From: a virus
Reading direction: 5' to 3' (one strand)
DNA length: 64,000 nucleotides
Virus record (IMG/VR): IMGVR_UViG_3300030012_004221
Coordinates: 94,184-158,183 of that record
Shown: one piece after another, positions 8,752 through 63,240 of the stretch
How the letters are laid out: each line of letters begins with the position of its first letter
How positions within the stretch are numbered: the first letter of the stretch is position 1
Translations under genes and position numbers: made by a program
The notes under the pieces: model-generated
Seen by the model: the letters and a program-made list of their open reading frames with translations, nothing else
What the model was told of the DNA's origin: nothing
Database searches by the model: none

Positions 8752-8826
8752 AAATTTTCTTTTTATTAAATTCATACACAAAACTTTGTAATATACTTAA
8801 TGGTAACGATTTGGCTATAAATATAG

Positions 8827-39934: not shown

Positions 39935-40495
39935 TTAAAACTGTTTTTTAGGTAAATAATATTGTGAGTAATTAAAATAACAATTTGTTGGAGGTGTAAC
40001 ATCATGTACATCATAAGTTACATCTGGTATATTATAAAAATTGTTTGATCCAGTCATTGAATTCCACCAAGTTGCTTTTCCTCCTACTTTCATTAATGGT
40101 GAAAGTGAGGATGAAAATTGTTTTATATGTTGATCTCCCCAAGTATCTAAAAATAAACCATCGTAAGTACTTAAAGTATCTTTTACATTATACCAGTCAC
40201 CTTCAACTATAGTTACATTAGATTTATCTGCAGCCCATGCTTGAGCTTTAGGAATTATGTCAGGATGATTTTCTATAATTGTATGTGAATTAATTGTATG
40301 TTGTTGAATATAACCAGCTGCTATACCCATTCCAAATCCAATTTCAAGAATATCACCACCTCCTTCACATATATAAGCTGCTGAAGCAGACATTAAAGAA
40401 TCTTCCCAATCCATCATAACCTCATAGGTTTCTCCATATTCAGTATAATGAATTTTATCTGAATCAAACGTTAAACTTTGAGATAAATAAGCCAT
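39935..40495 (-). CDS. RMT2/GAMT-like class I SAM methyltransferase
   Basis: VMMDWE..LM, ILEIGFGMGI, HTIIE.HPD, EGDW, YDGLFLDTW. Confidence 0.8.
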   Translation of the reverse strand: MAYLSQSLTFDSDKIHYTEYGETYEVMMDWEDSLMSASAAYICEGGGDILEIGFGMGIAAGYIQQHTINSHTIIENHPDIIPKAQAWAADKSNVTIVEGDWYNVKDTLSTYDGLFLDTWGDQHIKQFSSSLSPLMKVGGKATWWNSMTGSNNFYNIPDVTYDVHDVTPPTNCYFNYSQYYLPKKQF

Positions 40496-40505
40496 AATTT
40501 AACTA

Positions 40506-43500
40506 TTAAGATCTTTTTACATATGTTTTATCTGGATCAAAGTAAAGAGTTTCTGAATCTACTACATAACCTACAATTCTTACTATATTACCAGTACTTG
40601 ATGGTGCTGTAGTACCAATACCACCACTTGTATCATTTAAGAATAATTTTGAACCTACTGTAAATCCATGGCTATTTTTACAAACAAATCCTTGTAACAT
40701 CATACCATCTGTTGATGAATTACTTCCTAATGCATATGCTAACCAACCACCTCCGGCTGTTTCTGAAGCTTTTGAAGCTGTAGACCATGCTCCTCCTGAT
40801 GTCCAATAATATACTTTACCTATAGTTACTGAATCATTTCCTAATTTAACTACAACACCAGAAGCACTTGTTTCTTCATCAGATAATTCACCTGTAAGTG
40901 CTAGTACAGCAGCATCAGAAAGTGTTAAATATTGGTAATTATTTCCAGTAGCTATCTCAATTTGGCTATCAACATCTATTTCTGAATTTGAATTATCCCA
41001 TCTTAATAAACCACCATCATTAGTTCCATTTATATCTAATGATAAAGTTCTATTTTGATCTAATGTAGCACTTGCTCCACCATTAATTCTTATAGGAGCA
41101 GTTGCTGTAATAGTAATTGATGAACCTGATCCTCCTACTACACCTGAAGATCCACTTGATCCTGATGAACCTGATGTTGCACTATTTCCTGATCCACCTT
41201 CTGCACCATCTGCACCATTTGATCCTGATGAACCACTTGTTCCTGAAACTTTACTTGCACCTGATACACCTGAGTTACCATTCGAACCTGAAGATCCTGT
41301 TGTACCTGAAGTACCTGAAAGTGCACTAGCACCTGCACCACCTGCGTTACCACTTGAACCTGATGATCCTGAAGATCCTGAGGTTTGTGATGAAGCACTT
41401 GCTCCTCTTTCTCCTAATTCACCTGAAGATCCACTTGATCCTGATGAACCACTTGTAGATGATGATTTACTTGCTCCTGGACTACCTGTTGCACCATTTG
41501 ATCCTGATGAACCTGAAGTACCTGAAACTGCACTAGCACCTGAACCACCTGCATTACCACTTGAACCTGTTGATCCTGAAGATCCTGAGGTATTACTTGA
41601 TGCACTTGCACCTCTTTCTCCTGCTTGACCACTAGAACCACTTGATCCTGAGGAACCACTTGTAGCTGAAGATTTACTTGATCCTGGACTACCTGCTGCA
41701 CCATTTGATCCTGATGAACCTGAAGTACCTGAAGCTGCACTTGCGCCAGAAGCACCTGGTTCACCAGCTATACCATTAGAACCATTTGATCCTGAAGTAC
41801 CTGAAACTGCACTAGCACCACTTTCACCTGGTTCGCCATCTCCACCACTTGAACCTGATGAACCACTTGAACCTGAAGTTCCTGATCCTTTACTTGCTCC
41901 ACTTCCTCCTGCGGCACCAGTTGAACCACTTGATCCTGAAGATCCTGAGGTATTACTTGATGCACTTGCACCTGCTTCTCCTGCTTGACCATTAGATCCA
42001 GATGAACCTGAAGTACCTGAAACTGCACTTGCACCAGAAGCACCTGCGTTACCACTTGAACCTGTTGATCCTGAAGATCCTGACGTACCTGAACCTGCAC
42101 TTTGACCATTACCACCTGTAATACCTGATGAACCACTAGATCCTGATGAGCCGCTTGTACCTGATGCTTTGCTTGCTCCACTTCCACCTGCTGCACCACT
42201 TGAACCTGTTGAACCAGATGAACCTGAAGTTCCTGATCCTTTACTTTGTCCACTTCCTCCAGTATTACCTGAAGAACCAGATGATCCACTTGATCCCGAA
42301 GTATTACTTGATGCACTTGCACCTGCTTCTCCAGCTCCTCCACTTGAACCACTTGATCCAGATGAACCACTTGTAGCGGATGCAGCACTTGCTCCTGCTT
42401 CACCTGCTTGACCATTTGAACCTGATGAACCACTTGTTCCTGAAACTGCACTAGCACCTGAACCACCTGCATTACCGCTTGAACCTGTTGATCCCGAAGA
42501 TCCTGAAGTACCTGATCCTTTACTTGCTCCATTTCCTCCTGTAGCACCAGTTGAACCACTTGATCCTGATGAACCACTTGTACCTGATGCTCTACTTGCA
42601 CCTGATTCACCTGCTGATCCTGTTGTACCATCTGCACCTGAAGACCCTGCTGATCCTGAAGTATTACTTAATCCTGACGCTCCTGCATTACCTGAAGAAC
42701 CATTTGATCCCGATGAACCTGAAGTACCTGATGCTCTACTTGCTCCACTTCCACCTGTAGCACCAGAAGAACCAGTTGAACCTGAAGATCCGCTTGTACC
42801 TGATCCTTTACTTTGTCCACTTCCTCCAGCGTTACCTGAAGAACCAGATGATCCACTTGATCCTGAAGTTGCTGATGATGCACTTGCACCTGCTTCTCCA
42901 GCTCCTCCACTTGAACCACTTGATCCACTAGAACCAGAAGTTGCACTTACTGCGCTTGCTCCTGCTTCACCTGCTTGACCATTTGAACCGGATGAACCTG
43001 AAGTACCTGAAACTGCACTTGCACCAGAAGCACCTGCGTTACCACTTGAACCTGTTGATCCTGATGAACCACTAGTTCCTGATCCTTTACTTGCTCCATT
43101 TCCACCTGCTGCACCAGTTGAACCACTTGATCCACTAGAACCAGAAGTTGCACTTGCTGCACTTGCTCCTGCTTCACCTGATGAACCTGTAGTACCATCT
43201 GCTCCACTTGAACCAGCTGAACCTGATGTACCACTTAAACCTGAAGCACCTGATACACCTGAAGATCCTGTTGAACCAGAAGTACCACTTGCTCCTGAGG
43301 AACCATTTGTTCCTGTTGCTGCACTAGCACCATTTGAACCTGAAGATCCTGATGTACCACTTAAACCTGAAGATCCTGAAGTTGCGCTTGCTCCTGACTC
43401 TCCTGCATTACCACTCGAACCATTTGAACCTGATGAACCACTTGTAGATGATGATGCGCTTGCTCCTGCTTCACCTGCTGCACCACTAGAACCACTTGAT

Positions 43501-46500
43501 CCACTAGAACCAGAAGTATTACTAGCTGCACTTGCACCTGCTTCTCCTGCATTACCATTAGAACCACTTGATCCTGAAGATCCTGAAGTGTTTGAAGATG
43601 CACTTACACCTCCATCACCTGCATTACCATTTGAACCACTTGAACCAGATGAACCACTTGTAGCTGAAGCTGCACTAGCACCTGCTTCTCCTGCTGATCC
43701 TGTTGTACCGTCTGCACCCGAAGATCCCGATGAACCTGAAGTATTACTTAATCCTGATACTCCTGCATTACCTGAAGAGCCATTTGATCCTGATGAACCA
43801 CTTGTAGCTGAAGCTTTACTTGCTCCCGCAGCACCTGCATCACCACTTGAACCACTTGATCCTGAAGATCCTGAAGTGTTTGAAGATGCACTTGCACCTG
43901 CTGCACCTGCATTACCAGTTGAACCTGAAGAACCTGAAGAACCTGATGTACCACTTAAAGCACTTGCTCCACTTGAACCTGCTGTACCACTTCCACCACT
44001 TAATCCTGATGATCCTGTTGAACCTGAAGTTGCACTATCACCTGATGAACCTGTAGTTCCATCTGCACCTGAGGATCCTGCTGAACCAGAAGTACCACTT
44101 AAACCACTCGCACCTGATACACCTGCTGAACCTGCTGAACCACTAGTTCCTGAAGCACCTGAAGAACCATTTGTTCCTGTTGCAGCACTTGCTCCACTTG
44201 AACCTGTTGAACCTGAAGTTCCACTTAATCCTGAAGAACCTGAAGTAGCACTTGCACCTGATTCACCTGCATTACCGCTTGAACCATTTGAGCCCGAACT
44301 ACCACTTGTAGATGAAGCTGCACTTGCACCAGCATTACCTGCCGCACCACTTGAACCTGAAGATCCTGAAGATCCACTTGTACCTGATTGTTTACTTTCC
44401 CCACTTGATCCTGTTGTACCATCTGCTCCACTTGAACCAGCTGATCCTGAAGTACCACTTAAACCACTTGCACCTGATACACCTGCTGAACCCGCAGATC
44501 CTGAAGTACCACTTGCTCCTGAAGAACCATTTGTTCCTGTTGCAGCACTAGCACCATTTGAACCAGATGAACCTGAAGTTCCACTTTCTCCAGAAGAGCC
44601 AGATGTTGCACTTGCACCTGATTCACCGGCATTACCACTCGATCCATTAGACCCTGAAGATCCTGATGTTGATGATACAGCACTTGCTCCTGCATTACCT
44701 GCTGCACCACTTGAACCACTTGATCCAGATGAACCACTTGTACCTGATTGTTTGCTTTCTCCACTTGAACCTGTTGTTCCATCTGCACCTGAAGATCCTG
44801 CTGATCCTGAGGTACCACTTAAACCACTTGCACCTGATACACCAGCAGATCCTGTTGAACCTGAAGTACCACTTGCTCCTGAAGAACCGTTTGTTCCTGT
44901 TCCTCCACTTGCACCTGAAGATCCTGTTGAACCTGATGTTCCACTTAATCCTGAAGAACCTGAAGTAGCACTTGCACCTGATTCACCTGCATTACCGCTT
45001 GAACCGTTAGATCCTGATGAACCAGAAGTTGCACTTGCTGCACTTGCACCTGCATCACCTGCCGCACCACTAGAACCATTTGAACCTGATGAACCTGAAG
45101 TTCCACTTTCTCCACTTGAACCTGTTGTTCCATCTGCACCTGAGGATCCTGCTGAACCAGAAGTACCACTTAAACCTGAAGCACCTGATACACCTGCTGA
45201 ACCCGTTGAACCTGAAGTACCACTTGCTCCTGAAGAACCGTTTGTTCCTGTTGCAGCACTTGCTCCACTGGAACCTGTTGAACCTGATGTTCCACTTTCT
45301 CCAGAAGAACCTGAAGTTCCACTACCTCCAGATTCACCGGCGTTACCGTTTGAACCATTTGATCCTGATGAACCGGAAGTTGCACTTGCTGCACTTGCAC
45401 CAGCGTTACCTGCTGCACCACTTGAACCATTAGATCCTGAAGATCCTGATGTTGCACTATCACCTGATGAACCTGTTGTTCCATCTGCTCCACTTGAACC
45501 AGCTGAACCTGATGTACCACTTAATCCACTTGCACCTGATATACCTGCAGATCCTGTTGAACCACTAGTCCCTGAAGCGCCTGAAGAACCGTTTGTTCCT
45601 GTTCCTCCACTTGCACCATTTGAACCTGAAGATCCTGATGTACCACTTTCACCTGAAGATCCTGATGTAGCACTTGCACCTGATTCACCAGCGTTACCAC
45701 TTGAACCGTTTGAACCTGATGAGCCGCTTGTAGCTGAAGCTGCACTTGCTCCTGCATTACCTGCTGCACCACTAGAACCATTCGAACCTGATGAACCTGA
45801 AGTTCCACTTTCTCCAGAAGAACCTGTTGTACCGTCAGCACCTGAAGATCCTGCTGAACCAGAAGTACCACTTAAACCACTTGCACCCGATATACCTGCT
45901 GAACCTGTTGAACCAGAGGTACCACTTGCACCTGAAGAACCATTTGTTCCTGTTCCTCCACTTGCACCATTTGAACCTGATGAACCTGAAGTTCCACTTT
46001 CTCCAGAAGAACCAGATGTTGCACTAGCGCCAGATTCACCAGCGTTACCACTAGAACCATTTGAACCTGAACTACCACTTGTAGCTGATGCAGCGCTTGC
46101 TCCTGCTGCTCCTGCTCCTCCACTTGAACCATTTGATCCTGAAGATCCTGAAGTTCCACTTTCTCCACTTGAACCTGTTGTTCCATCTGCACCTGAAGAT
46201 CCTGCTGATCCTGAAGTTCCTGCTAAACCTGAAGCACCTGATACACCTGCTGAACCACTAGATCCTGAAGTTGCAGAAGCACCACTTGAACCTACTGTTC
46301 CTGTTGCACCACTTACACCACTTGAACCTGTTGAACCTGAGGTAGCTGACTCACCTGAAGATCCTGTTGTACCATCGTCACCTGAAGATCCTGAAGAACC
46401 ATTAGTTCCACTTAAACCTGAAACACCTGCTACACCAGATGATCCCGAAGTACCATTTCCACCACTTGATCCTGATGAACCTGATGTACCAGCTGAACCT

Positions 46501-47909
46501 GATGTACCTGAATTACCTGCTTCACCTGATGAACCTGTAGTACCATCTGCTCCACTTGATCCTGATGAACCTGAAGTTCCTGCTAGACCTGAAGCACCTG
46601 ATACACCACTTGAACCTTGTGAACCTGAAGTTGCACTTGCACCACTTGAACCTACTGTTCCTGTTGCACCACTCACTCCTGAAGATCCTGATGATCCTGA
46701 TGTTTTACTTTCACCTGAAGAACCTGTTGTACCATCATCACCTGAAGAACCCGATGAACCATTAGTACCACTTAATCCTGAAACACCAGCTACACCGGAT
46801 GAACCTGAAGTACCATTTGCACCACTTGAACCAGATGAACCTGCTGAACCAGAAGTACCACTTACACCTGAAGAACCACTTGTACCTGATTGTTTACTTT
46901 CTCCACTTGAACCTGTTGTACCGTCATCTCCTGATGATCCTGAAGAACCATTAGTTCCACTTAAACCTGAAACACCTGCTACACCAGATGATCCTGAAGT
47001 ACCGTTTGCTCCACTTGAACCAGATGAACCTCCTGAACCTGAAGACCCTGCTGTACCTGATTGGCCAGCTGTACCACTAGAGCCTGCTATACCACTAGTA
47101 CCACTTGATACTTCAACAAATCCTATTTTACCTGATCCTGTTGCATATGTTAATACAAAAGGAAAATCTTGAACTGGTGCTGATTTTATTTGGAATTCAT
47201 TTCCAGTTCCACTTATATCAAATGTACTACTACCTGTTACTGCAAAACCTCCACTATCAGATCCTGTTATTTGAGCTGATCCTGAAAACGGAAAACCTGC
47301 ACCACCTCCTAATCCATCATTTAAAGTTCTAGCTACATATTGATAAACTGAACATTTTACTGTATCACCTGTAGTAGGTGCTACATCTGCATCATTAAAT
47401 TGTATTACACCTGTTTTATAATCAAATTGGTAATTTGCTGCATTCTGTTTAGTACCATTTACTCTAATAGTTACATTATAACCTGGTGTTGCATCTTCTG
47501 TATCTGCATTTGATAAAGAAGGATCTGAGTATTTAGGAGAAATAAAACTTCCTTGTTGGCCTGCCTGTAAAATTTGAGGTGTTACTGCTGTAGTAGGATC
47601 ATGTCCTGAAGCTGATATAAAGAAGAATACTTCTGTTTTACTACCATTTACAACATTTGAAGGTGTTAATGTGAATTGATAATAATATTTTAATAAGTCA
47701 GCACTTCCAGATAAAACAGTAGATTCATTCTGACTACTACCAGAATATGGCAATCCCGTAGCAGGGATAGCTGCTTGATCTATATAGATTTCAGTAGCAT
47801 TGAGGTCAAGTACTCGCGTGAATGCTTCTTGTGCATCCGTACTTGACTCCATTGTATATCTTCTACTCTGGAGTAACCTATTTGATTTTTTAGTTTTATC
47901 TAATGCCAT
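40506..47909 (-). CDS. Giant Gly/Ser triplet-repeat (collagen-like) fibre protein
   Basis: About 270-aa N-terminal domain, 1995-aa triplet region and about 200-aa C-terminal domain. Confidence 0.85.
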   Translation of the reverse strand: MALDKTKKSNRLLQSRRYTMESSTDAQEAFTRVLDLNATEIYIDQAAIPATGLPYSGSSQNESTVLSGSADLLKYYYQFTLTPSNVVNGSKTEVFFFISASGHDPTTAVTPQILQAGQQGSFISPKYSDPSLSNADTEDATPGYNVTIRVNGTKQNAANYQFDYKTGVIQFNDADVAPTTGDTVKCSVYQYVARTLNDGLGGGAGFPFSGSAQITGSDSGGFAVTGSSTFDISGTGNEFQIKSAPVQDFPFVLTYATGSGKIGFVEVSSGTSGIAGSSGTAGQSGTAGSSGSGGSSGSSGANGTSGSSGVAGVSGLSGTNGSSGSSGDDGTTGSSGESKQSGTSGSSGVSGTSGSAGSSGSSGANGTSGSSGVAGVSGLSGTNGSSGSSGDDGTTGSSGESKTSGSSGSSGVSGATGTVGSSGASATSGSQGSSGVSGASGLAGTSGSSGSSGADGTTGSSGEAGNSGTSGSAGTSGSSGSSGGNGTSGSSGVAGVSGLSGTNGSSGSSGDDGTTGSSGESATSGSTGSSGVSGATGTVGSSGASATSGSSGSAGVSGASGLAGTSGSAGSSGADGTTGSSGESGTSGSSGSNGSSGGAGAAGASAASATSGSSGSNGSSGNAGESGASATSGSSGESGTSGSSGSNGASGGTGTNGSSGASGTSGSTGSAGISGASGLSGTSGSAGSSGADGTTGSSGESGTSGSSGSNGSSGAAGNAGASAASATSGSSGSNGSSGNAGESGASATSGSSGESGTSGSSGSNGASGGTGTNGSSGASGTSGSTGSAGISGASGLSGTSGSAGSSGADGTTGSSGDSATSGSSGSNGSSGAAGNAGASAASATSGSSGSNGSNGNAGESGGSGTSGSSGESGTSGSTGSSGASAATGTNGSSGASGTSGSTGSAGVSGASGLSGTSGSAGSSGADGTTGSSGESGTSGSSGSNGSSGAAGDAGASAASATSGSSGSNGSSGNAGESGASATSGSSGLSGTSGSTGSSGASGGTGTNGSSGASGTSGSTGSAGVSGASGLSGTSGSAGSSGADGTTGSSGESKQSGTSGSSGSSGSSGAAGNAGASAVSSTSGSSGSNGSSGNAGESGASATSGSSGESGTSGSSGSNGASAATGTNGSSGASGTSGSAGSAGVSGASGLSGTSGSAGSSGADGTTGSSGESKQSGTSGSSGSSGSSGAAGNAGASAASSTSGSSGSNGSSGNAGESGASATSGSSGLSGTSGSTGSSGASAATGTNGSSGASGTSGSAGSAGVSGASGLSGTSGSAGSSGADGTTGSSGDSATSGSTGSSGLSGGSGTAGSSGASALSGTSGSSGSSGSTGNAGAAGASASSNTSGSSGSSGSSGDAGAAGASKASATSGSSGSNGSSGNAGVSGLSNTSGSSGSSGADGTTGSAGEAGASAASATSGSSGSSGSNGNAGDGGVSASSNTSGSSGSSGSNGNAGEAGASAASNTSGSSGSSGSSGAAGEAGASASSSTSGSSGSNGSSGNAGESGASATSGSSGLSGTSGSSGSNGASAATGTNGSSGASGTSGSTGSSGVSGASGLSGTSGSAGSSGADGTTGSSGEAGASAASATSGSSGSSGSTGAAGGNGASKGSGTSGSSGSTGSSGNAGASGASAVSGTSGSSGSNGQAGEAGASAVSATSGSSGSSGSSGGAGEAGASASSATSGSSGSSGSSGNAGGSGQSKGSGTSGSSGSTGSSGATGGSGASRASGTSGSSGSNGSSGNAGASGLSNTSGSAGSSGADGTTGSAGESGASRASGTSGSSGSSGSTGATGGNGASKGSGTSGSSGSTGSSGNAGGSGASAVSGTSGSSGSNGQAGEAGASAASATSGSSGSSGSSGGAGEAGASASSNTSGSSGSSGSSGNTGGSGQSKGSGTSGSSGSTGSSGAAGGSGASKASGTSGSSGSSGSSGITGGNGQSAGSGTSGSSGSTGSSGNAGASGASAVSGTSGSSGSNGQAGEAGASASSNTSGSSGSSGSTGAAGGSGASKGSGTSGSSGSSGSSGGDGEPGESGASAVSGTSGSNGSNGIAGEPGASGASAASGTSGSSGSNGAAGSPGSSKSSATSGSSGSSGSSGQAGERGASASSNTSGSSGSTGSSGNAGGSGASAVSGTSGSSGSNGATGSPGASKSSSTSGSSGSSGSSGELGERGASASSQTSGSSGSSGSSGNAGGAGASALSGTSGTTGSSGSNGNSGVSGASKVSGTSGSSGSNGADGAEGGSGNSATSGSSGSSGSSGVVGGSGSSITITATAPIRINGGASATLDQNRTLSLDINGTNDGGLLRWDNSNSEIDVDSQIEIATGNNYQYLTLSDAAVLALTGELSDEETSASGVVVKLGNDSVTIGKVYYWTSGGAWSTASKASETAGGGWLAYALGSNSSTDGMMLQGFVCKNSHGFTVGSKLFLNDTSGGIGTTAPSSTGNIVRIVGYVVDSETLYFDPDKTYVKRS
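41118..47102 (-). repeat. 9-nt (Gly-X-Y) periodic region of 5985 nt = 665 triplets, with 351/360-nt higher-order repeats
   Basis: First Gly codon at 47100-47102, last GSS ends at 41118. The landmark gtaccacttaa recurs with its tta at 44099, 44459, 44819, 45170, 45521 and 45872. Confidence 0.9.
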
Positions 47910-47916
47910 TCTTTAT

Positions 47917-50706
47917 TTATGCAATTGTTATTGTTATATCTTCTACTGGTGTTGGATCACCTTTATACCTTATTATAACTATAAAGTCTTGATCGGATCC
48001 ATCCAAAATCATACCATCACCGTTACGAAGAGGTATATTATAATTATTTCCATTTACACTACCACCTACATTACCATATAAAGCAATATTTGTTGTAAAT
48101 GGGTTTTTAAACCCATCATTAGCTATACTAGCTGATATAACATTGTCTACTGTGTTTGTAGGGTCAAAAATTCTTGGTGGAGTATAGTTACCTGTTCCTG
48201 AGCTTTGAAATATAATTGCAGCGGACACACCATTAGTAAATGGTTCCTGCCAAGGATTTAAAGTAGTACCTAAACTCATAGTTACACTACCAGCTCCTGT
48301 TCCTAAAGTTCTTTGAAATGCTCTAGCATAATAAATATAATCTCCTGATGAACCATTAGCAGGTGACCAATAACCATTTGTACCACCTGGTTCAACTAAA
48401 TATCCTGGTTTTACTTGCAATTCTAAAGGATCTAATACAAATTCACTATAACTAGATGTATCAAACTTATCACCACCAGCGTAAGTTCCTACAAGTAAAT
48501 TATTATTAATTTTAATCCTATTATTTTCTCCTGAAAAATTTTCTGAGAATGAAGTTGTTCCTGTTAATGAACTACCATCATATCCCTGAGCTCTACCATA
48601 ATATGCCATTGAACCTGATGCTGCATCTTGGCCAAAAGTTCCAGGTTTAAAATACTCAAATGTATTTGTATTTGTTGTTATATCAACCCCATTTCTTCTT
48701 CTACATCTATCCTCAGCAGTAAATGTTGTTGGTGATATTGAAGTTTGAGTTATATTAGTTGAACCAGCACTTCCAGCATTTACTGTTAAACTACCGGTTA
48801 ATTTTACTATATCAGTTTCAAATGGAACTGTACTTGTTGCTCTAGCAGTTGTACCTGTAGAATCAAATATAAAATTAGCTGTTTGTATTGTACCACCACT
48901 TAGAGAACCCGCACTAACACCTGTTCCACCATCTGCAATAGTTAAAATACCTACTGATTCAAATATTCTAGCAAATGTAGAACTTGCAGCATATAAAGGA
49001 TCAAATGCATTAGTAATTGAAGCTGATGATTCCCAAGTAGCTGTTAGTAAATAAGGTGCACCTGAAAGTGATCTTGATGTTGCAGTTAATGATTGACTAC
49101 CTGCACTTGCTATAGTTGGGGTATTTGTTGGTACATTTGTATTAATTTGTGTTGTTGGGGCATAAAATACTTCTATATTATTTTCAAAAAATGTTGAATA
49201 ATTAGAGGATCCAGATTGTATACCTACAGATTGAGATAAGTAATAATATCCTGATGATGAAGGTGATGTTAATGATACTCCATCGTTATAAAAACCTTGA
49301 TCAAATACACCTGCAAATTTACCATCTTGAAAAGCATCAGGAATTAAAGGATTACCTGTTGATATATCTCCAACAGTTAAACCATCAGATGTTCCTGCTC
49401 CTGTTCTTGTTAAAAAGTGTACTGATGCTGATGACACTGTTAATGTTTTTGAACTATTATTAGCAAATCTATTCATTTGTGAACTCGATACATTAAATGC
49501 TGAGTTAATAGCTCCTAATCCAAATAATTGTGAGTCAACTGATGATGATACTATAGTTGTACCACCAGCTACAGATTGATAAGATCTATTATATGCAGAG
49601 CTATTAGCGATAGGTGATATTCCTTGAAATATCTGTTGACCTGCTGTTGCAAATCCTTTAGATTGTAAATAATTAATTGTATCGTTAGTACTTGTTTGAG
49701 GTACACGTCCACTAGGTGCTGTACCAGTAGTAGCATTTGTAGTTGCTACGCCTAAACTCGCGTAAGTACGCGTATTGGGTGATGCATCTGGTGCAGAAGC
49801 ACTTAATAAACCAGCCATAAATCTTAAAATTTCTGCTGTGTCTGTATTATGATCAAAATTATTAAAATATGAACCATCTAAATCTGTTTTCCATGCTTTT
49901 GATGTAGGAATACCTACATTATCTGTATAATGCCATATTGATTGACTTATAGTCATTGCATATTTATCTACACCTCCTCCTGTTCCTGCATTTGAAGCTG
50001 TTATATTAGCACCTGTTGTTGTAAATGGAGATTGTTGTATTGTACTTCCTGTTACTTGTAATGAAGAGGTTGTACCAAATATATCACCTGTTACAACATT
50101 AAAAATACCATCTACTGTAGAACTACCTCCACTTCCATATGAACCTGTATAATAAACTAATCCTGTTGATTCATCTCTTACTAATACTCCATATGTTTGT
50201 CCTGGGTTTTGAGATGCACTTATTTGTAAAAATGCTGATGTACTTATATTACCTGATGCTGTTATTTCACTAGCAACTACTTGAGCACTAGAGCTAATAA
50301 TACCAGATGCAGTTATATTATTATTTACATATAATGAAGATGATAAATCAACATCTCCTGTTATATTAAGAGAACCTGTTATTTGTAAATCGTTTGTAGT
50401 AGCAAAAAATGAACCAGTTTGAACAAATATACCTGATCCTCCTCCACCACCACCACCTGTGGATGAAATTGTTACTACACCTTTACCATCAGCAGGTGAT
50501 ATTGAAACATTAGATCCTGCTATAATTTGTTGAACACCTTCTGTAGCTGAACTAATATCTACACTATGGGTAACACTACTACTAGGAAAGAAAAATGACA
50601 GAATAGATGCAGATACAGAACTAGAAACATACAGCGACTGAAAATTGCCATCTACTTCTGCGAATGTTAACTCGGAACCTTTGTTCTGTCTTAATATTAT
50701 ACCCAT
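47917..50706 (-). CDS. Virion fibre/appendage protein
   Basis: N-terminal LRQNKGSELTFAEVDGNF motif typical of phage fibre N-termini; Ser/Thr/Gly-rich; late motif upstream. Confidence 0.7.
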   Translation of the reverse strand: MGIILRQNKGSELTFAEVDGNFQSLYVSSSVSASILSFFFPSSSVTHSVDISSATEGVQQIIAGSNVSISPADGKGVVTISSTGGGGGGGSGIFVQTGSFFATTNDLQITGSLNITGDVDLSSSLYVNNNITASGIISSSAQVVASEITASGNISTSAFLQISASQNPGQTYGVLVRDESTGLVYYTGSYGSGGSSTVDGIFNVVTGDIFGTTSSLQVTGSTIQQSPFTTTGANITASNAGTGGGVDKYAMTISQSIWHYTDNVGIPTSKAWKTDLDGSYFNNFDHNTDTAEILRFMAGLLSASAPDASPNTRTYASLGVATTNATTGTAPSGRVPQTSTNDTINYLQSKGFATAGQQIFQGISPIANSSAYNRSYQSVAGGTTIVSSSVDSQLFGLGAINSAFNVSSSQMNRFANNSSKTLTVSSASVHFLTRTGAGTSDGLTVGDISTGNPLIPDAFQDGKFAGVFDQGFYNDGVSLTSPSSSGYYYLSQSVGIQSGSSNYSTFFENNIEVFYAPTTQINTNVPTNTPTIASAGSQSLTATSRSLSGAPYLLTATWESSASITNAFDPLYAASSTFARIFESVGILTIADGGTGVSAGSLSGGTIQTANFIFDSTGTTARATSTVPFETDIVKLTGSLTVNAGSAGSTNITQTSISPTTFTAEDRCRRRNGVDITTNTNTFEYFKPGTFGQDAASGSMAYYGRAQGYDGSSLTGTTSFSENFSGENNRIKINNNLLVGTYAGGDKFDTSSYSEFVLDPLELQVKPGYLVEPGGTNGYWSPANGSSGDYIYYARAFQRTLGTGAGSVTMSLGTTLNPWQEPFTNGVSAAIIFQSSGTGNYTPPRIFDPTNTVDNVISASIANDGFKNPFTTNIALYGNVGGSVNGNNYNIPLRNGDGMILDGSDQDFIVIIRYKGDPTPVEDITITIA

Positions 50707-53933: not shown

Positions 53934-53978
53934 AATTATGTTTTTGTTATAAATATATAAAAAATTATTCCCAATTAT

Positions 53979-54713
53979 TTACTTTCGGGATCTTCCACTA
54001 CTCCCAGATGTACCCTTAAATATACCTCTTTCTTCAGCTTCCTCATAAACTACAATTAAATCATCAACAATAGGATCTCTATGATTTTTATTTAAAGTTA
54101 TTCCTGTCATGTTTTTAATTTTTCTTGCCGCTGCATATAAAAATCTAAATCCAGAATCAGCTTTACTTCTTAAATCCACTTGATGATCATCACCACATAC
54201 TATCATTTTTGATCTTAAACCTATACGAGTTGAAATCATTTCCATTTGTTCATGTGTAACATTTTGTGCTTCATCTACAATAATACATGAATCTAAAAAC
54301 GTTCTACCTCTCATAAATGCTAAGGGTACTATTTCTATTTTACCATCTTCAATTAGTTTTTCTATCTTTACTTTATCATAAAGTGAATACATATTTTGAT
54401 AAATAGGTTGAATCCAAGGATCCATTTTTTCTCTTAAATCTCCTGGTAGGAATCCTATTTCTTCTTTTGAAACGGTTGGTCTTGTAATTATAATTTTTGA
54501 ATATTGTCTTCTTAATAACCCATCTAAAGCTACATTACATGCTAATAATGTTTTTCCTGAGCCTGCTTTACCAGCTAATACAGTTAAAGTATTAATTAAT
54601 ATTTTTGCTTTAGCTTTCTTTTGTTCTTCATTTAATTGTAATTTAAATTTTATTGGATTTTTAACTATTCGTTTTTGTCTGAATATTTCGTCCTCGTGAT
54701 GGTTTGATGGCAT
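53979..54713 (-). CDS. phoH: PhoH-family ATPase
   Basis: GKAGSGKT, ITRP, IGFLPGDLREK, FMRGRTF, DEAQN, GD..Q.D. Confidence 0.93.
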   Translation of the reverse strand: MPSNHHEDEIFRQKRIVKNPIKFKLQLNEEQKKAKAKILINTLTVLAGKAGSGKTLLACNVALDGLLRRQYSKIIITRPTVSKEEIGFLPGDLREKMDPWIQPIYQNMYSLYDKVKIEKLIEDGKIEIVPLAFMRGRTFLDSCIIVDEAQNVTHEQMEMISTRIGLRSKMIVCGDDHQVDLRSKADSGFRFLYAAARKIKNMTGITLNKNHRDPIVDDLIVVYEEAEERGIFKGTSGSSGRSRK

Positions 54714-55428
54714 TGTTTATTTCTTTAATTTTTACTAATTTATCAAGACCAGCATTTACATGCATTGTATCATCTAGAATGGTCTCGAAATTATATCTAG
54801 AATCCAGAGGTAGAACTAAATCTACTTGTGATCCCCATCTAATCAAACTGAATCTTTCGTTTTGAGCGCAAAGATCCCCTTGTTGTTTAAAAGGGGCTAT
54901 TACGTTTACATCTTCATCTGCTATTTGTATTATATGGTATGTGTAATTTAAAGAAGGAACATACACTTGGTTAGACATTCTTTCATTATACTTTAAGTAT
55001 GCCATGTTATTTGGATTGATTACTTTATTTAAAATATCCTTCTCTACCGCTAACATTGGCTTATTTGTAGACTCAATAGGTTCTAAACGTTTATAGTTTA
55101 AAACTCCCCCATAAGGAATTCTATTGATGTGTACATCATAAAACGACATAAATATTCCAATAACTAAAGAAGGTTTATTATAATCACTATCACCCATTAC
55201 ATCTTGGATAGTATAATCAATACCTTTTATTTCTAAAACTTGCTCACCAGGTTGAACTACTTTTTGATATAAAATAGTACCATCTGCTGGGCTATAAAAA
55301 TGTTCATGATCTATGTAAGTTGATCTGAGGGGATCTCTAAAAAAGAAAGTATTACTTAATTCCCCAACTGATAATTTAGATAATTCTGCTACTTCACCAT
55401 TTAGCCAGTCTTCTAATTTTTCAGCCAT
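54661..55428 (-). CDS. Phosphatidylserine decarboxylase-family (pyruvoyl) enzyme
   Basis: FFFRDP.R, SPADG, IFMS.YDVHINRIP, NER and IRWGSQVDL (GS self-cleavage site); no N-terminal TM. Confidence 0.85.
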   Translation of the reverse strand: MAEKLEDWLNGEVAELSKLSVGELSNTFFFRDPLRSTYIDHEHFYSPADGTILYQKVVQPGEQVLEIKGIDYTIQDVMGDSDYNKPSLVIGIFMSFYDVHINRIPYGGVLNYKRLEPIESTNKPMLAVEKDILNKVINPNNMAYLKYNERMSNQVYVPSLNYTYHIIQIADEDVNVIAPFKQQGDLCAQNERFSLIRWGSQVDLVLPLDSRYNFETILDDTMHVNAGLDKLVKIKEINNAIKPSRGRNIQTKTNS

Positions 55429-56342
55429 TATAAAAGTGTTTTAAAATGATCAACCCTATTTAAATGCATTACCATACAACTTAACATAGCTCCTGATTTC
55501 ATATATTCTGATAAATTAAATATTACAGGTTCCATACCTTGTTGTGAACATATTTTTTCTAAAGATTCAATTTTATGTTTTTCTCCTTCATAAAACTCAT
55601 CTGATTTTTTAAGTTCAGCAATATTTGAAGCACATAAAATCATGTTTCCTAATCTAACTGAGTTAGCCATTCCATACATAGAGTCTTCTACATCTATATC
55701 TACTATATCAGTGTATTTACTTATTTGTTCTAATTCTGCTTTATCATATAGTTCCGTACAAACCATAGTTGCATGTGGGTTTAATGGAAAAATACTACAA
55801 TCTAAATGGTACATATATTCATCTACCATTTTAACTTTAATAACTTTCATATTAAAGTTTTCTTCCATCCATTTATAAGTTTCAATATCTGATCTAATAT
55901 CATAACCACCAATATAAACATTATCATAAAGGTATTTTATATCAGCTTCTCCTTCCCATTTATAAGGTGAAATTGTTGTTTCATACCCCATTTGTCTAAA
56001 GAATTTTTCACCTACATATTCTTCACCTTGTCTTGGGGGTGAAGTGTAGTTTGAAAGTAAAATATGATTATCATCACAAATATGAGGTAATTGTAAACCT
56101 AAATTTGCTACGTAAATTAAATCTTGAAAATTACCTTCTGCTGGTAGTAAATGTACTAATGATTGACCCGCCATAAAATTATATAAATCCATAAATTGTT
56201 TATATGCTTTTGGTCTATTAATTGTTAATTCTTTTTCAGACATTTCTTTCATCCAAATGTTATTAGGATCATTTGTTGAAAAGGTATGGGGGAAATTCAT
56301 TACGTAACTTTGAATTGGTAACTGCGAGGGAGTTTCTTTCAT
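55428..56342 (-). CDS. Amidinotransferase-superfamily (pentein) guanidino-modifying enzyme, DDAH/arginine dihydrolase-like
   Basis: N.WM, D..Y.AN.G, RQGE, EGEAD, YHLD and SEYMKSGAMLSC (catalytic Cys). Confidence 0.85.
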   Translation of the reverse strand: MKETPSQLPIQSYVMNFPHTFSTNDPNNIWMKEMSEKELTINRPKAYKQFMDLYNFMAGQSLVHLLPAEGNFQDLIYVANLGLQLPHICDDNHILLSNYTSPPRQGEEYVGEKFFRQMGYETTISPYKWEGEADIKYLYDNVYIGGYDIRSDIETYKWMEENFNMKVIKVKMVDEYMYHLDCSIFPLNPHATMVCTELYDKAELEQISKYTDIVDIDVEDSMYGMANSVRLGNMILCASNIAELKKSDEFYEGEKHKIESLEKICSQQGMEPVIFNLSEYMKSGAMLSCMVMHLNRVDHFKTLL

Positions 56343-56403
56343 TTTAATAACTGTTTTTGTTTGACTATAAATATAATAATTACTAACTAGGTAGCCAAAT
56401 AGT

Positions 56404-56430
56404 AAAAAAAAGCCCCGCTAATGCGGGGCT
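56404..56430 (-). terminator. Rho-independent terminator after the major capsid gene
   Basis: AGCCCCGC-AUUA-GCGGGGCU followed by a U-run. Confidence 0.9.
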
Positions 56431-56457
56431 TAATTATTTATCTATGAAATTACTTGA

Positions 56458-58134
56458 TTACAGTGTATTTAAACCGTTAACAAAGATTTTAGCATAGAAT
56501 TCAGGTCTTACAACTTTCTTAGCATATCTTGTAAGTAATCCTTTTCTAGGTGTGAACGTAGTTGGATCATATACTAATGGAGTCATAATTAGCGGAATGT
56601 ATGGAGCAAATACTGCACCAGCTTCTAAGAACTGACCTCCTCTAAATCCTAATAGGATTGTATTTTCAGTCATATATGGGTTCTTATAAACAGTGTATCT
56701 TGAGTTGATAGTACCTGCTTTTTGTACACCAAATGCATAATTCATTTTAGCAGCATCACCGTCTGAAGTACTAGCAAATCCTGGAATGGATTCGATAATA
56801 GTAGCTACAGTTGGAGAACATACTAAGAAATTAGCACCACCTCTAAGAGTTTTCTGGTGTATTACATTACTTAACTTCTGGATTTTAGTTCCTAAAGTTT
56901 GGAACCATTGTCCTTGAGAGTTATAGAAACCTAGATCAGAATCTATAACACCTGAAGCTCCTAGTGATAAGTTGTTTTGAGCACTCCACCACTCAGTTCC
57001 AGCAGCAGCTGATTCAATTAACATATCAAGAATTTCTAAGTCAATTTCTAATGAAATGTACTCACTCATGATTGAAGTTAATTCAGCTTCAGCGTCTAGA
57101 GAATGGTAAGCATTTAAATCTTGAGCGAACTCAGGAGTCCAAACAGCTTTTAGTTTTCTAGTTTTAGCAACGATAGCCTCTGATTGCATTTGAATGTTAA
57201 TCTGAGGAATTGTAATTGGGTTATTATTTCCATTTAGGTTAGTATTACCTTCTTCGAAATCACCTCTTTCAGCATCATTAGTTTGTAGTGTATATACTAC
57301 TTTTAATGAACCACCTTCAGCAACACCTGCGCCTACGAAGAATCTGATTACGTCATTACCAGCTGATTGAGTTACTTTTGTAAACTCTGGATACTGTCTT
57401 GCAGTACCATCTGTTGGTAAATCAGCAGCAGAACCTGATAAATAGAATCCTTTTACAGCTCTAGTGTCATAATCTGGAAGATTAGTTGTAAGAATATCTA
57501 ATGCAACGATCTGTCCAGTAGCACCTGCAGTATATGATTGAGATACAGCTGAATCAGCTTGTAAGTCAGTATACCAATCAACAGAAGCTGAAGCTACAGT
57601 GTAAGCTAAAGATTGTGTGTTGTTAATAGAGTAACCAAATCTACCAGCACCGTAAAGACCACCTTCGTTAGTGTTCCCGAAAGGAGCAGTTGAAGGGTTA
57701 GTACCAGCGTTACCATAAAGAGAATTACCAGCAGTAAATGGCTCTTTAGTAGTACCATATTGGAAATCTAGATAAAATACTAGACCAGAAGGTAAGTTCA
57801 TTGGCTGAACGCTAACAAATTCTTTTGCAGCAATCTGTCCAAATACTTTTCTTACCAATGGTAAAGCAACTCCAGCCCACTGTCCAGCAGGACCTGTACC
57901 TGGAGAGAATGAACCAGCACCAGCACCACCGCCAGTGTTAGTTTCTTCCATAACCAATTGCTTGGCTTGGTTTTCTAGGATCATAGACATGTTGTTCTTT
58001 TCAGTTTCGTTTCCGATTCCTTCTAAAAGACCTGTCTTATCCCATTTAGCAGCTAATCTAGCAGCGTCACTCTGTAGTGACTTATACGGATTAGCGCTTT
58101 CTAAAAGTGAATTTAATTGTGACATTTTTTTCAA
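56458..58134 (-). CDS. Major capsid protein (T4 gp23-like)
   Basis: LENQ, LPLVR, VQPM..PSGL.F, AKTRKLKA.WT.E.AQDL, APYIPL, P.TF.P.KG..TRY. Confidence 0.96.
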   Translation of the reverse strand: MKKMSQLNSLLESANPYKSLQSDAARLAAKWDKTGLLEGIGNETEKNNMSMILENQAKQLVMEETNTGGGAGAGSFSPGTGPAGQWAGVALPLVRKVFGQIAAKEFVSVQPMNLPSGLVFYLDFQYGTTKEPFTAGNSLYGNAGTNPSTAPFGNTNEGGLYGAGRFGYSINNTQSLAYTVASASVDWYTDLQADSAVSQSYTAGATGQIVALDILTTNLPDYDTRAVKGFYLSGSAADLPTDGTARQYPEFTKVTQSAGNDVIRFFVGAGVAEGGSLKVVYTLQTNDAERGDFEEGNTNLNGNNNPITIPQINIQMQSEAIVAKTRKLKAVWTPEFAQDLNAYHSLDAEAELTSIMSEYISLEIDLEILDMLIESAAAGTEWWSAQNNLSLGASGVIDSDLGFYNSQGQWFQTLGTKIQKLSNVIHQKTLRGGANFLVCSPTVATIIESIPGFASTSDGDAAKMNYAFGVQKAGTINSRYTVYKNPYMTENTILLGFRGGQFLEAGAVFAPYIPLIMTPLVYDPTTFTPRKGLLTRYAKKVVRPEFYAKIFVNGLNTL

Positions 58135-63209: not shown

Positions 63210-63240
63210 CAATACTTATTTTTTTATAAATATATTAAAA

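What the first reader, a model, noticed from the sequence alone, without database searches (positions are those of the whole stretch)
53979..56342. Amidinotransferase-fold + soluble PSD-fold decarboxylase + PhoH operon between capsid and neck genes
Seen: three overlapping genes with their own promoter motifs after the MCP terminator. The pentein enzyme resembles arginine dihydrolase/DDAH types. The decarboxylase has an intact GS cleavage site but no membrane anchor. Known: PSD-fold enzymes can act on non-lipid substrates (fungal PsiD). Inference: a two-step pathway, such as Arg to ornithine to putrescine for DNA packaging, or serine decarboxylation plus amidination to make a guanidinoethyl substituent for glycan, lipid or DNA. 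I do not know this pair as a described phage module.
Basis: partly seen in the sequence, partly recalled or inferred. Interest (0 to 1): 0.7.

Follow-up and report, generated by a model that had tools for sequence, protein, structure and literature searches.

The report
Phage arginine-to-putrescine enzyme pair
Just after its capsid gene, this T4-like phage of a Bacteroidota host carries two coupled enzyme genes, also found together in other phages and in bacteria of several phyla, that most likely turn arginine into the DNA-binding polyamine putrescine by a route I found in no paper.

Summary
Three co-directional, overlapping minus-strand genes follow the capsid-gene terminator: a 304-aa pentein enzyme, a 255-aa anchor-less PSD-fold pyruvoyl decarboxylase, and PhoH.

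- **Pentein.** It is an ArgZ/AgrE-type arginine-dihydrolase homologue (profile E 3e-43, TM 0.8-0.9). All catalytic and substrate-carboxylate residues are kept.
- **Decarboxylase.** It keeps the Gly-Ser self-cleavage site but has no hydrophobic segment.
- **Linkage.** The two genes are adjacent in all 156 untruncated related viral or metagenomic loci. They are also adjacent in Bacteroides DAC phages and in 14 of 16 bacterial loci, where an exporter gene usually follows. They co-occur in 45 of the 46 phage records that carry the pentein, out of 50,697 searched, although about 43 kb apart in Fletchervirus NCTC12673.
- **Replacement.** Twice the PSD-fold partner is replaced by a SpeD-fold pyruvoyl decarboxylase.
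- **Complex.** A complex model passes its controls (0.70 against 0.00).

Best reading: arginine to ornithine to putrescine, made late in infection. The main rival is arginine to agmatine to putrescine. PhoH is a neighbour, not part of the module. No activity has been measured.

This scan had already reached the same reading for this pair on other genomes. I found no paper describing it.

The parts
56458..58134 (-). Context: gp23-type major capsid protein gene (558 aa)
   Evidence: PF07068 E 3.7e-77 and phrog_138. It lies upstream of the pair in nearly all related viral loci.
56410..56431 (-). Intrinsic-terminator-like hairpin (9 bp, 7 G-C pairs, loop of 4) plus T-run after the capsid gene
   Evidence: sequence read.
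56366..56375 (-). TATATTTATA word about 24 nt upstream of the pentein start; possible late-type promoter element (inferred)
   Evidence: 4 matches in the window, all on the coding strand, against 1.8 expected. Not significant on its own.
55428..56342 (-). ArgZ/AgrE-like pentein enzyme, 304 aa (P0001); proposed arginine dihydrolase. Catalytic Cys289, His179, Glu130; Asp74, Asn80; carboxylate-binding Arg104 and Arg150
   Evidence: phrog_12759 E 2e-61. PDB profile search: ArgZ/AgrE E 3e-43. Model pLDDT 96.7. Foldseek: AgrE/ArgZ E 1e-21, TM 0.8-0.9. Residue conservation across the family.
54661..55428 (-). Anchor-less PSD-fold pyruvoyl decarboxylase proenzyme, 255 aa (P0002); proposed ornithine (or arginine) decarboxylase. 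Self-cleavage site Gly199-Ser200 (codons 54834-54829); Asp49 in SPADG; His100 in DVHxNRxP
   Evidence: PF02666 E 2.6e-24. phrog_12670 E 7e-42. Invariant motifs in alignment A2. Foldseek: E. coli PSD, then PsiD and Ao-ADC1. No hydrophobic segment.
53979..54713 (-). PhoH-like ATPase gene (244 aa), co-transcribed neighbour that overlaps the decarboxylase gene by 53 nt; not part of the conserved pair
   Evidence: PF02562 E 3.4e-62. It is present next to the capsid gene in phage immuto without the pair.
53948..53957 (-). Second TATATTTATA word, about 15 nt upstream of the next gene (53933-53472); marks the end of the three-gene unit (inferred)

Best explanation
The first two genes encode a two-enzyme module, probably a complex, that turns L-arginine into putrescine. 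Step 1 (inferred from homology): the pentein acts like the cyanobacterial arginine dihydrolases ArgZ/AgrE and hydrolyses the guanidino group of arginine to give ornithine, CO2 and two NH3. Step 2 (inferred): the PSD-fold protein cleaves itself between Gly199 and Ser200 to form a pyruvoyl cofactor. It then decarboxylates ornithine, a soluble amino acid rather than a lipid, to putrescine. The genes sit in a late structural operon behind the capsid gene. The likely purpose is to raise the polyamine pool when DNA is condensed and packaged and translation demand is high (inferred). PhoH is co-transcribed but is not part of the module. What is shown: the folds, the conserved catalytic residues, the very strong gene linkage across phages and bacteria, the replacement by a second pyruvoyl decarboxylase fold, and a complex model that passes its controls. 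What is not shown: any substrate, product or order of steps.
For: (1) **Pentein identity.**
- The family profile matches ArgZ/AgrE over its full length at E 3e-43, with DDAH next at about 1e-9.
- The model has pLDDT 96.7. Foldseek places it on AgrE/ArgZ at TM 0.80-0.90.
- ArgZ residues D65, N71, R90, E93, E118, R139, H168, D170 and C264 align with D74, N80, R104, E107, E130, R150, H179, D181 and C289. Apart from N80, these are kept in 42-44 of the 45 aligned family members; N80 is kept in 38.
- The two arginines correspond to the alpha-carboxylate binders of DDAH (Arg85/Arg132 in the P. aeruginosa enzyme; Arg98/Arg145 in human DDAH-1). That assignment is from my own knowledge. It implies the substrate still carries its carboxylate, so the pentein would act before decarboxylation.

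(2) **Decarboxylase.**
- PF02666 matches.
- G199-S200, D49 and H100 are invariant.
- There is no membrane segment.
- The N-terminal region of E. coli PSD ahead of residue 65 has no counterpart here.

(3) **Linkage.**
- The genes are adjacent in 79 of 80 IMG/VR loci and 77 of 80 metagenome loci. All 4 exceptions are cut by a contig end.
- They are adjacent in further viral lineages and in Bacteroides phage DAC19.
- They are adjacent in 14 of 16 informative bacterial loci. These come from Actinomycetota, Verrucomicrobiota, Eisenbacteria and a Chromatiaceae genome.
- Of 50,697 phage records, the pentein occurs in 46 and the decarboxylase in 45 of those same records. The one discordant record holds only fragments of the pentein.

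(4) **Non-orthologous replacement.** A SpeD-fold pyruvoyl decarboxylase is fused to the pentein in P0311, and another lies directly upstream of it in L106. Phage SpeD homologues are proven ornithine or arginine decarboxylases (PMC9992855, PMC10407285). The partner's substrate is therefore a small basic amino acid.

(5) **Agmatine-deiminase-like third gene.** One viral lineage keeps such a gene right after the pair, which ties the cluster to polyamine metabolism.

(6) **Complex model.**
- Score 0.70, best control 0.00. That mark was reached by 58 of 80 solved complexes and 2 of 110 mismatched pairs.
- The runs agree in at least 95% of contacts, and partner pLDDT is at least 82.
- I know of no solved pentein-PSD complex.

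(7) **Precedents.** Arginase plus ornithine decarboxylase modules are known in giant viruses (PMC9992855). A PSD-fold enzyme that decarboxylates arginine and has no PSD activity is known in Aspergillus oryzae (PMC12904898; PDB 9JER/9JF5).
Against: - No activity has been measured for any member of either family.
- Both proteins score far below the NCBIfam equivalog cut-offs: arginine dihydrolase 82.6 against 450 bits, PSD 78 against 183. They are separate subfamilies whose substrates may differ.
- No PSD-fold ornithine decarboxylase is known. The only PSD-fold enzyme acting on a basic amino acid uses arginine, which favours the rival order.
- The agmatine-deiminase-like third gene fits an agmatine route at least as well.
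- In bacteria the pair is usually followed by a MATE or ABC exporter. That is not expected for simple housekeeping polyamine synthesis.
- The phage encodes no SpeD or spermidine synthase to carry putrescine further.
- The role assigned to Arg104 and Arg150 rests on homology and on my memory of the DDAH literature. I could not open the ArgZ and AgrE structure papers.
- The decarboxylase model is only moderate (pLDDT 79, 15-sequence alignment), and its match to solved PSD is weak (TM 0.4-0.5).
Confidence: 0.45

Rival explanations
1. The goal is the same (putrescine) but the order is reversed. The PSD-fold enzyme is an arginine decarboxylase making agmatine. The ArgZ-like pentein then strips the guanidino group from agmatine, acting as an 'agmatine dihydrolase', or hydrolyses N-carbamoylputrescine made by a host or phage agmatine deiminase.
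For: The only characterised PSD-fold enzyme acting on a basic amino acid is an arginine decarboxylase, Ao-ADC1 (PMC12904898; it appears among the fold matches). One viral lineage keeps an agmatine-deiminase-like gene directly after the pair, across divergence down to 44-47% identity. The second half-reaction of ArgZ is a ureido hydrolysis, the chemistry needed for N-carbamoylputrescine. From my own knowledge, Campylobacter and Bacteroides hosts use the agmatine route. The SpeD-like partner in L106 is most similar to pelagiphage SpeD homologues, and pelagiphage HTVC201P SpeD is an arginine decarboxylase (PMC9992855).
Against: Agmatine and N-carbamoylputrescine have no carboxylate, yet the two carboxylate-binding arginines are kept in 43-44 of 45 family members. 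The match to Ao-ADC1 is weak (E 0.02, TM 0.45) and weaker than the match to E. coli PSD. If the pentein handled agmatine completely, an added agmatine deiminase would be redundant.
Confidence: 0.22
2. The pair makes a different arginine-derived or guanidino metabolite. For example, the pentein might transfer an amidino group from arginine onto the amine made by the decarboxylase. Bacteria would export the product and phages would use it on DNA, glycan or virion.
For: Penteins include amidinotransferases, which appear among the lower fold matches (SxtG, AGAT, HsvA). A donor arginine would explain the retained carboxylate binders. Bacterial cassettes carry an exporter gene next to the pair.
Against: Sequence and fold place the family with the hydrolases ArgZ/AgrE and DDAH, far above amidinotransferases (E 1e-43 against 4e-3 for SxtG). 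No Pfam amidinotransferase model matches. Asn80, the counterpart of the ArgZ residue needed for the second hydrolysis, is kept in 38 of 45 members. The pair does not track the deazaguanine genes: the nearest isolate, immuto, has fully modified DNA (PMC10516641) but lacks the pair.
Confidence: 0.1
3. Gene 2 is an ordinary phosphatidylserine decarboxylase that remodels host membrane lipid, and the pentein is an unrelated arginine-catabolic auxiliary gene.
For: The best Pfam, NCBIfam and solved-structure matches are to PSD. GenBank records of Fletchervirus annotate the homologue as phosphatidylserine decarboxylase.
Against: There is no membrane segment or hydrophobic N-terminal region. All PSD equivalog cut-offs are missed by a wide margin. 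The gene is tightly linked to the pentein in hundreds of loci and the two co-occur across the whole phage collection. A SpeD-fold enzyme, which has no lipid substrates, can replace it. A heterocomplex with the pentein is predicted.
Confidence: 0.04

Closest known systems
ArgZ (Synechocystis Sll1336) and AgrE (Anabaena Alr4995) arginine dihydrolases, PDB 6JUY-6JV1 and 6LRF-6LRH
   Same: The pentein fold is the same (TM 0.8-0.9) and the sequences align over their full length (profile E 3e-43). The Cys-His-Glu catalytic set, the Asn needed for the second hydrolysis and both carboxylate-binding arginines are all kept.
   Different: Identity is only about 20%, and the NCBIfam arginine-dihydrolase score is 82.6 against a cut-off of 450. 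The protein is a single 304-aa domain without the C-terminal domains of ArgZ/AgrE, whose solved chains are about 700 residues long. It is paired with a pyruvoyl decarboxylase instead. It is carried by phages and non-cyanobacterial bacteria.
Phosphatidylserine decarboxylase (E. coli Psd, PDB 6L06/7CNW; short PRK05305/TIGR00164-type PSD)
   Same: It belongs to the PF02666 fold. The Gly-Ser self-processing site and the SPADG Asp and DVH His motifs are kept.
   Different: There is no membrane anchor or hydrophobic N-terminal region, and it scores far below the PSD equivalog cut-offs. Its genomic partner is a soluble arginine-type hydrolase. It can be replaced by a SpeD-fold enzyme.
Ao-ADC1, PSD-fold pyruvoyl arginine decarboxylase of Aspergillus oryzae (PDB 9JER/9JF5), and PsiD tryptophan decarboxylase (8ZIA)
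   Same: These are PSD-fold enzymes that decarboxylate free amino acids and lack PSD activity (PMC12904898). Both appear among the fold matches.
   Different: The matches are weak (E 2e-3 to 2e-2, TM about 0.4). The fungal proteins are much larger (483 aa, with an N-terminal helical region) and are not paired with a pentein. The substrate here is unknown.
Virus-encoded polyamine modules: arginase + ODC (+ homospermidine synthase) of Imitervirales; ADC + AIH + NCPAH of chlorovirus PBCV-1; SpeD-derived pyruvoyl ODC/ADC of aquatic phages (PMC9992855, PMC10407285)
   Same: The proposed purpose is the same: arginine to putrescine during infection. PLP-independent pyruvoyl decarboxylases are used. 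A SpeD-fold decarboxylase is even found fused to, or next to, this pentein.
   Different: Here the arginine-to-ornithine step would use a pentein dihydrolase instead of arginase, and the decarboxylase is PSD-fold. Neither enzyme family appears in that survey: text searches for 'dihydrolase', 'phosphatidylserine', 'Campylobacter' and 'Bacteroides' gave zero hits.

Membership tests
Pentein / guanidino-group-modifying enzyme superfamily, ArgZ-AgrE arginine dihydrolase branch | Five-bladed alpha/beta propeller (pentein) fold | tested here: met
   Model pLDDT 96.7. Foldseek to AgrE/ArgZ N-domain E 5e-22, TM 0.80-0.90.
Pentein / guanidino-group-modifying enzyme superfamily, ArgZ-AgrE arginine dihydrolase branch | Catalytic Cys, His and acidic residue, plus guanidino-binding Asp | tested here: met
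   C289, H179, E130 and D74 align with ArgZ C264, H168, E118 and D65. Each is kept in 42 of 45 family members.
Pentein / guanidino-group-modifying enzyme superfamily, ArgZ-AgrE arginine dihydrolase branch | Asn71 of ArgZ (the residue changed in the N71S structure 6JUZ), needed for the second hydrolysis that makes the enzyme a dihydrolase rather than a deiminase | tested here: met
   N80 in P0001; Asn in 38 of 45 members and Ser in 4. Its role is recalled from memory plus the 6JUZ title.
Pentein / guanidino-group-modifying enzyme superfamily, ArgZ-AgrE arginine dihydrolase branch | Two arginines that bind the substrate alpha-carboxylate | tested here: met
   R104 and R150 align with ArgZ R90 and R139 and are kept in 44 and 43 of 45 members. 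Their role is inferred from DDAH (my own knowledge).
Pentein / guanidino-group-modifying enzyme superfamily, ArgZ-AgrE arginine dihydrolase branch | Score above the curated equivalog cut-off (NF052232 Arg_dihydro) | tested here: not met
   82.6 bits against a cut-off of 450. It ties with the M. tuberculosis-type DDAH model at 83.2 against 300. I therefore file it as a separate subfamily, not as ArgZ.
Pentein / guanidino-group-modifying enzyme superfamily, ArgZ-AgrE arginine dihydrolase branch | Arginine to ornithine + CO2 + 2 NH3 activity | not testable with these tools
   Needs an enzyme assay.
Phosphatidylserine decarboxylase family (PF02666) | Pfam gathering score | tested here: met
   86.4 bits against a cut-off of 22.
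Phosphatidylserine decarboxylase family (PF02666) | Gly-Ser self-cleavage site with Asp/His helpers that generate the pyruvoyl group | tested here: met
   G199-S200, D49 (SPADG) and H100 (DVHxNRxP) are invariant in 15 phage and bacterial members. They align with the PADG and DYH motifs of E. coli PSD. Processing itself was not observed.
Phosphatidylserine decarboxylase family (PF02666) | Membrane association (TM segment or hydrophobic N-terminal helices) and a phospholipid substrate | tested here: not met
   Maximum 19-residue hydropathy is 0.95. The E. coli PSD region before residue 65 has no counterpart. All PSD equivalog cut-offs are missed, the best being 78.3 against 183.
PhoH-like ATPase (PF02562) | Pfam gathering score over the full domain | tested here: met
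   210 bits against a cut-off of 27, covering profile positions 6-205 of 205.
Amidinotransferase family (PF02274 and relatives) | Match to an amidinotransferase model, or closest similarity to amidinotransferases | tested here: not met
   No Pfam family matches at E 0.01. SxtG is only at E 4e-3 in the profile search against 3e-43 for ArgZ/AgrE. The GenBank label 'amidinotransferase' on the Fletchervirus homologues is a superfamily-level name.

The most novel reading that the evidence does not exclude
The two enzymes form a heteromeric channelling complex that makes an arginine-derived cationic product by an undescribed route. Either this is the first PSD-fold ornithine decarboxylase, coupled to a non-cyanobacterial arginine dihydrolase, or the product is not plain putrescine at all. 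In the second case it would be a new metabolite that bacteria export through the adjacent MATE/ABC pump and that phages load into capsids or attach to DNA.
Probability: 0.15. Interest if true: 0.8.

Novelty: new variant of a known kind. Interest (0 to 1): 0.65.

Why it matters
Polyamines are needed for phage DNA condensation and for translation, and virus-encoded polyamine enzymes are a recognised class of auxiliary metabolic genes. If the best reading is right, the pair would add:

- a new route from arginine to putrescine, through a pentein dihydrolase rather than arginase;
- another protein fold for basic amino acid decarboxylation in prokaryotes and phages.

The route is not rare. Each protein has over 1,100 close relatives in metagenomes. 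The pair occurs in all complete Fletchervirus records searched (Campylobacter phages), in Bacteroides gut phages, in an abundant group of aquatic phages, and in soil and water bacteria of several phyla.

It would also correct two widespread database labels, 'phosphatidylserine decarboxylase' and 'amidinotransferase', on phage genes. The predicted heterocomplex and the twofold swap of decarboxylase fold give a clean system for studying how pyruvoyl enzymes change substrate.

Tried and rejected
- **Link to guanine-replacing DNA modification.** I rejected the link as the main reading. The predicted CDG decarboxylase DpdL is QueD-like, not PSD-like (PMC10516641). The nearest isolate, immuto, has fully modified DNA but lacks the pair. 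Bacteria carry the pair with exporters, not with DNA-modification genes.
- **Downstream polyamine genes.** SpeE and SpeD families are absent from this phage, NCTC12673, DAC19 and immuto.
- **Fusions of the PSD-like protein with the pentein.** None was found among longer proteins. The three long hits look like unrelated fusions or read-throughs. The extra N-terminal regions of the long penteins P0259 and P0273 match neither the PSD-like nor the SpeD-like fold.
- **Typing the SpeD-like partners as ornithine- or arginine-specific.** The paper gives a Gln/Thr/Phe/Tyr signature for the ornithine type (PMC10407285). The L106 protein has such residues near its processing serine, but I could not verify the positions because figures are not held. 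The nearest phage homologues are uncharacterised pelagiphage SpeD genes. This is inconclusive.
- **ArgZ and AgrE structure papers.** They could not be opened.
- **Locus search with the 45-sequence alignment.** It failed for lack of a conserved stretch. A single protein and a 12-sequence alignment were used instead.
- **Literature searches.** Searches for the pair in phages found nothing relevant.
Full report
**What is there**

The window is the last 64 kb of a 158-kb viral record rated 97% complete. Its G+C content is about 30%. Its nearest isolate by DNA is Flavobacterium phage immuto.

At 53979-56342 lie three minus-strand genes:
- a 304-aa protein (P0001, 56342-55428);
- a 255-aa protein (P0002, 55428-54661);
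- a 244-aa PhoH (54713-53979).

The first two genes share a TAATG junction. The second and third overlap by 53 nt. Upstream is a gp23-type capsid gene, followed by a strong hairpin terminator at 56431-56410.

Sigma-70-like promoter hits are at chance level. The word TATATTTATA precedes both the first gene and the next gene downstream, but its count in the window is not significant on its own. Only its promoter claim is weak.

**The pentein**

P0001 has no Pfam hit, but it belongs to a large family. A search of 50%-identity representatives found 962 clusters at E below 1e-3 and 154 below 1e-30.

- A 45-member profile matches the cyanobacterial arginine dihydrolases ArgZ and AgrE over the full length at E 3e-43. 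DDAH follows at about 1e-9 and the amidinotransferase SxtG at only 4e-3.
- The AlphaFold model (pLDDT 96.7) superposes on the ArgZ/AgrE catalytic domain with TM 0.8-0.9.
- I derived ArgZ numbering from the printed alignment, anchored on the N71S mutant chain 6JUZ. On that numbering D65, N71, R90, E93, E118, R139, H168, D170 and C264 correspond to D74, N80, R104, E107, E130, R150, H179, D181 and C289 of P0001.
- Apart from N80, these positions are kept in 42-44 of the 45 aligned members; N80 is kept in 38.
- The two arginines sit in the same motifs (RxGE and GxxRT/S) as the alpha-carboxylate binders of DDAH. That role is from my own knowledge.
- Their conservation argues that the substrate is an alpha-amino acid such as arginine, not a decarboxylated amine.
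- The protein misses the curated arginine-dihydrolase cut-off by a wide margin (82.6 against 450 bits) and has no further domain beyond the pentein fold. It is a distinct subfamily, not ArgZ itself.

**The decarboxylase**

- P0002 matches PF02666 at E 2.6e-24.
- In an alignment of phage and bacterial members, the Gly199-Ser200 cleavage site, Asp49 (SPADG) and His100 (DVHxNRxP) are invariant.
- It has no hydrophobic segment.
- The part of E. coli PSD that precedes residue 65 has no counterpart.
- It misses every PSD equivalog cut-off.
- Its model (pLDDT 79) matches E. coli PSD best. Weaker matches are to the tryptophan decarboxylase PsiD and the Aspergillus oryzae arginine decarboxylase Ao-ADC1.
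- Ao-ADC1 is a PSD-fold, pyruvoyl-dependent enzyme with no PSD activity (PMC12904898). A PSD fold acting on a basic amino acid therefore has a precedent.

**Linkage**

This is the strongest result.

- *Close viral relatives.* The decarboxylase gene directly follows the pentein gene in 79 of 80 IMG/VR loci and 77 of 80 metagenome loci. All four exceptions are cut by a contig end. The order capsid, pentein, decarboxylase, PhoH is kept.
- *More distant viral lineages.* These also keep the pair (L104/L105, L113-L115), as do the Bacteroides DAC phages.
- *The whole phage collection.* Of 50,697 records, the pentein is found in 46 and the decarboxylase in 45 of those same records. These are Fletchervirus (Campylobacter) and Bacteroides phages.
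  - The single discordant record has only fragments of the pentein.
  - A record with a degraded pentein also has a fragmented decarboxylase.
  - In Fletchervirus NCTC12673 the two genes lie about 43 kb apart, so this co-occurrence is not just shared neighbourhood.
- *Bacteria.* The pair also occurs in Allokutzneria, Kutzneria, Nocardia, Streptoalloteichus, Thermoleophilaceae, Verrucomicrobia, Eisenbacteria and a Chromatiaceae genome.
  - The decarboxylase gene lies directly upstream of the pentein gene in 14 of 16 informative loci.
  - The next gene is usually a MATE or a fused ABC exporter.

**Replacement and additions**

- In P0311 a SpeD-fold (AdoMet_dc) domain is fused to the N-terminus of the pentein.
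- In L106 a separate 106-aa SpeD-like gene lies directly upstream of a pentein that carries a C-terminal pyrophosphatase-like domain. No PSD-like gene is present in either case.
- SpeD homologues of phages, bacteria and archaea have been shown to be ornithine or arginine decarboxylases (PMC9992855, PMC10407285).
- Two unrelated pyruvoyl folds serving the same pentein argues that the decarboxylase substrate is a small basic amino acid, not a lipid.
- One viral lineage (L107-L112) keeps a third gene after the pair. It is an agmatine-deiminase-like pentein with the catalytic Cys motif, and it is conserved down to 44-47% identity.

**Complex prediction**

A complex model of the two proteins passes its controls.
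- The median score is 0.70 and the best of three controls is 0.00.
- That mark was reached by 58 of 80 solved complexes and by 2 of 110 mismatched pairs.
- The runs agree in at least 95% of contacts, and partner pLDDT is at least 82.
- The interface pairs decarboxylase residues 34-43 with a strand (271-276) and two helices of the pentein.
- This supports binding but does not show it. I know of no solved complex of these folds that the model could be recalling.

**Mechanism**

The best-supported reading is arginine to ornithine (pentein), then ornithine to putrescine (PSD-fold enzyme). The pair would act as a complex, late in infection, when DNA is packaged. I put this at about 0.45.

The main rival keeps the goal but reverses the order: arginine decarboxylase first, then removal of the guanidino or ureido group from agmatine or N-carbamoylputrescine. 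I put this at about 0.22. The Ao-ADC1 precedent and the agmatine-deiminase-like third gene favour it. The retained carboxylate-binding arginines count against it.

Together, an 'arginine-derived polyamine' function seems likely at roughly two in three.

Less likely readings:
- An amidino-transfer or other new metabolite, suggested by the bacterial exporters.
- An ordinary lipid PSD role, which is poorly supported.

PhoH is not part of the module. Phage immuto has the same capsid-PhoH arrangement with unrelated genes in the slot, and other carriers of the pair lack an adjacent PhoH.

**What is known**

- The survey of viral polyamine enzymes (PMC9992855) lists arginase, PLP- and SpeD-type decarboxylases, agmatine deiminase and others. 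Text searches in it gave no hit for dihydrolase, phosphatidylserine, Campylobacter or Bacteroides.
- Four further literature searches found nothing on this pair.
- GenBank labels the Fletchervirus genes 'amidinotransferase' and 'phosphatidylserine decarboxylase'.
- Earlier agents of this scan reached the same reading on other genomes. I came to it from my own tests before reading those notes. Their agreement is not independent evidence.

**Verdict**

The feature is real and strongly conserved, and as far as I could search it is undescribed as a two-enzyme module. It is a new variant of a known kind, virus-encoded polyamine synthesis. The substrates and the order of steps remain to be measured.

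Noticed in passing
P0325, P0368, P0347, P0382 (metagenomic pentein homologues; not in the window): Several homologues of the pentein are 590-942 aa long because LAGLIDADG/intein-type insertions interrupt the enzyme.
   Followed up: partly
L106:3987-5309 (P0263): One pentein homologue carries a C-terminal PF18823 'InPase' pyrophosphatase-like domain and is preceded by a small SpeD-like gene. The role of the extra domain is unexplained.
   Followed up: partly
L001:4560-6483 (Flavobacterium phage immuto, MW353175): The slot between the capsid gene and phoH, which holds the enzyme pair here, holds an 89-aa 'tail fiber protein' gene and a 546-aa unknown gene in the nearest isolate. The slot looks like a variable cargo site inside a conserved structural operon.
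   Followed up: partly
window 40000-48000: G+C rises to 0.39-0.48 in a genome of about 0.30.
   Followed up: no
L002 and records (Fletchervirus, e.g. GU296433 76628-77386): In most Fletchervirus records the PSD-like gene abuts a Hef-type homing endonuclease gene. That might explain why it lies about 43 kb from its pentein partner in these phages.
   Followed up: no
PV052264.1 and PP921807.1: Two Campylobacter phage records have a fragmented or partial pentein, and the PSD-like gene is respectively fragmented or undetected. This is either joint decay of the pair or sequencing errors in these records.
   Followed up: no
L104:1253-2101: In one viral lineage a heptosyltransferase-like (GT9) gene overlaps the start of the pentein gene, upstream of the pair.
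   Followed up: no
window 8816-8825 and 63225-63234: Two further copies of TATATTTATA lie on the coding strand. Together with the two copies flanking the three-gene unit, they may mark a late-promoter word of this phage.
   Followed up: partly
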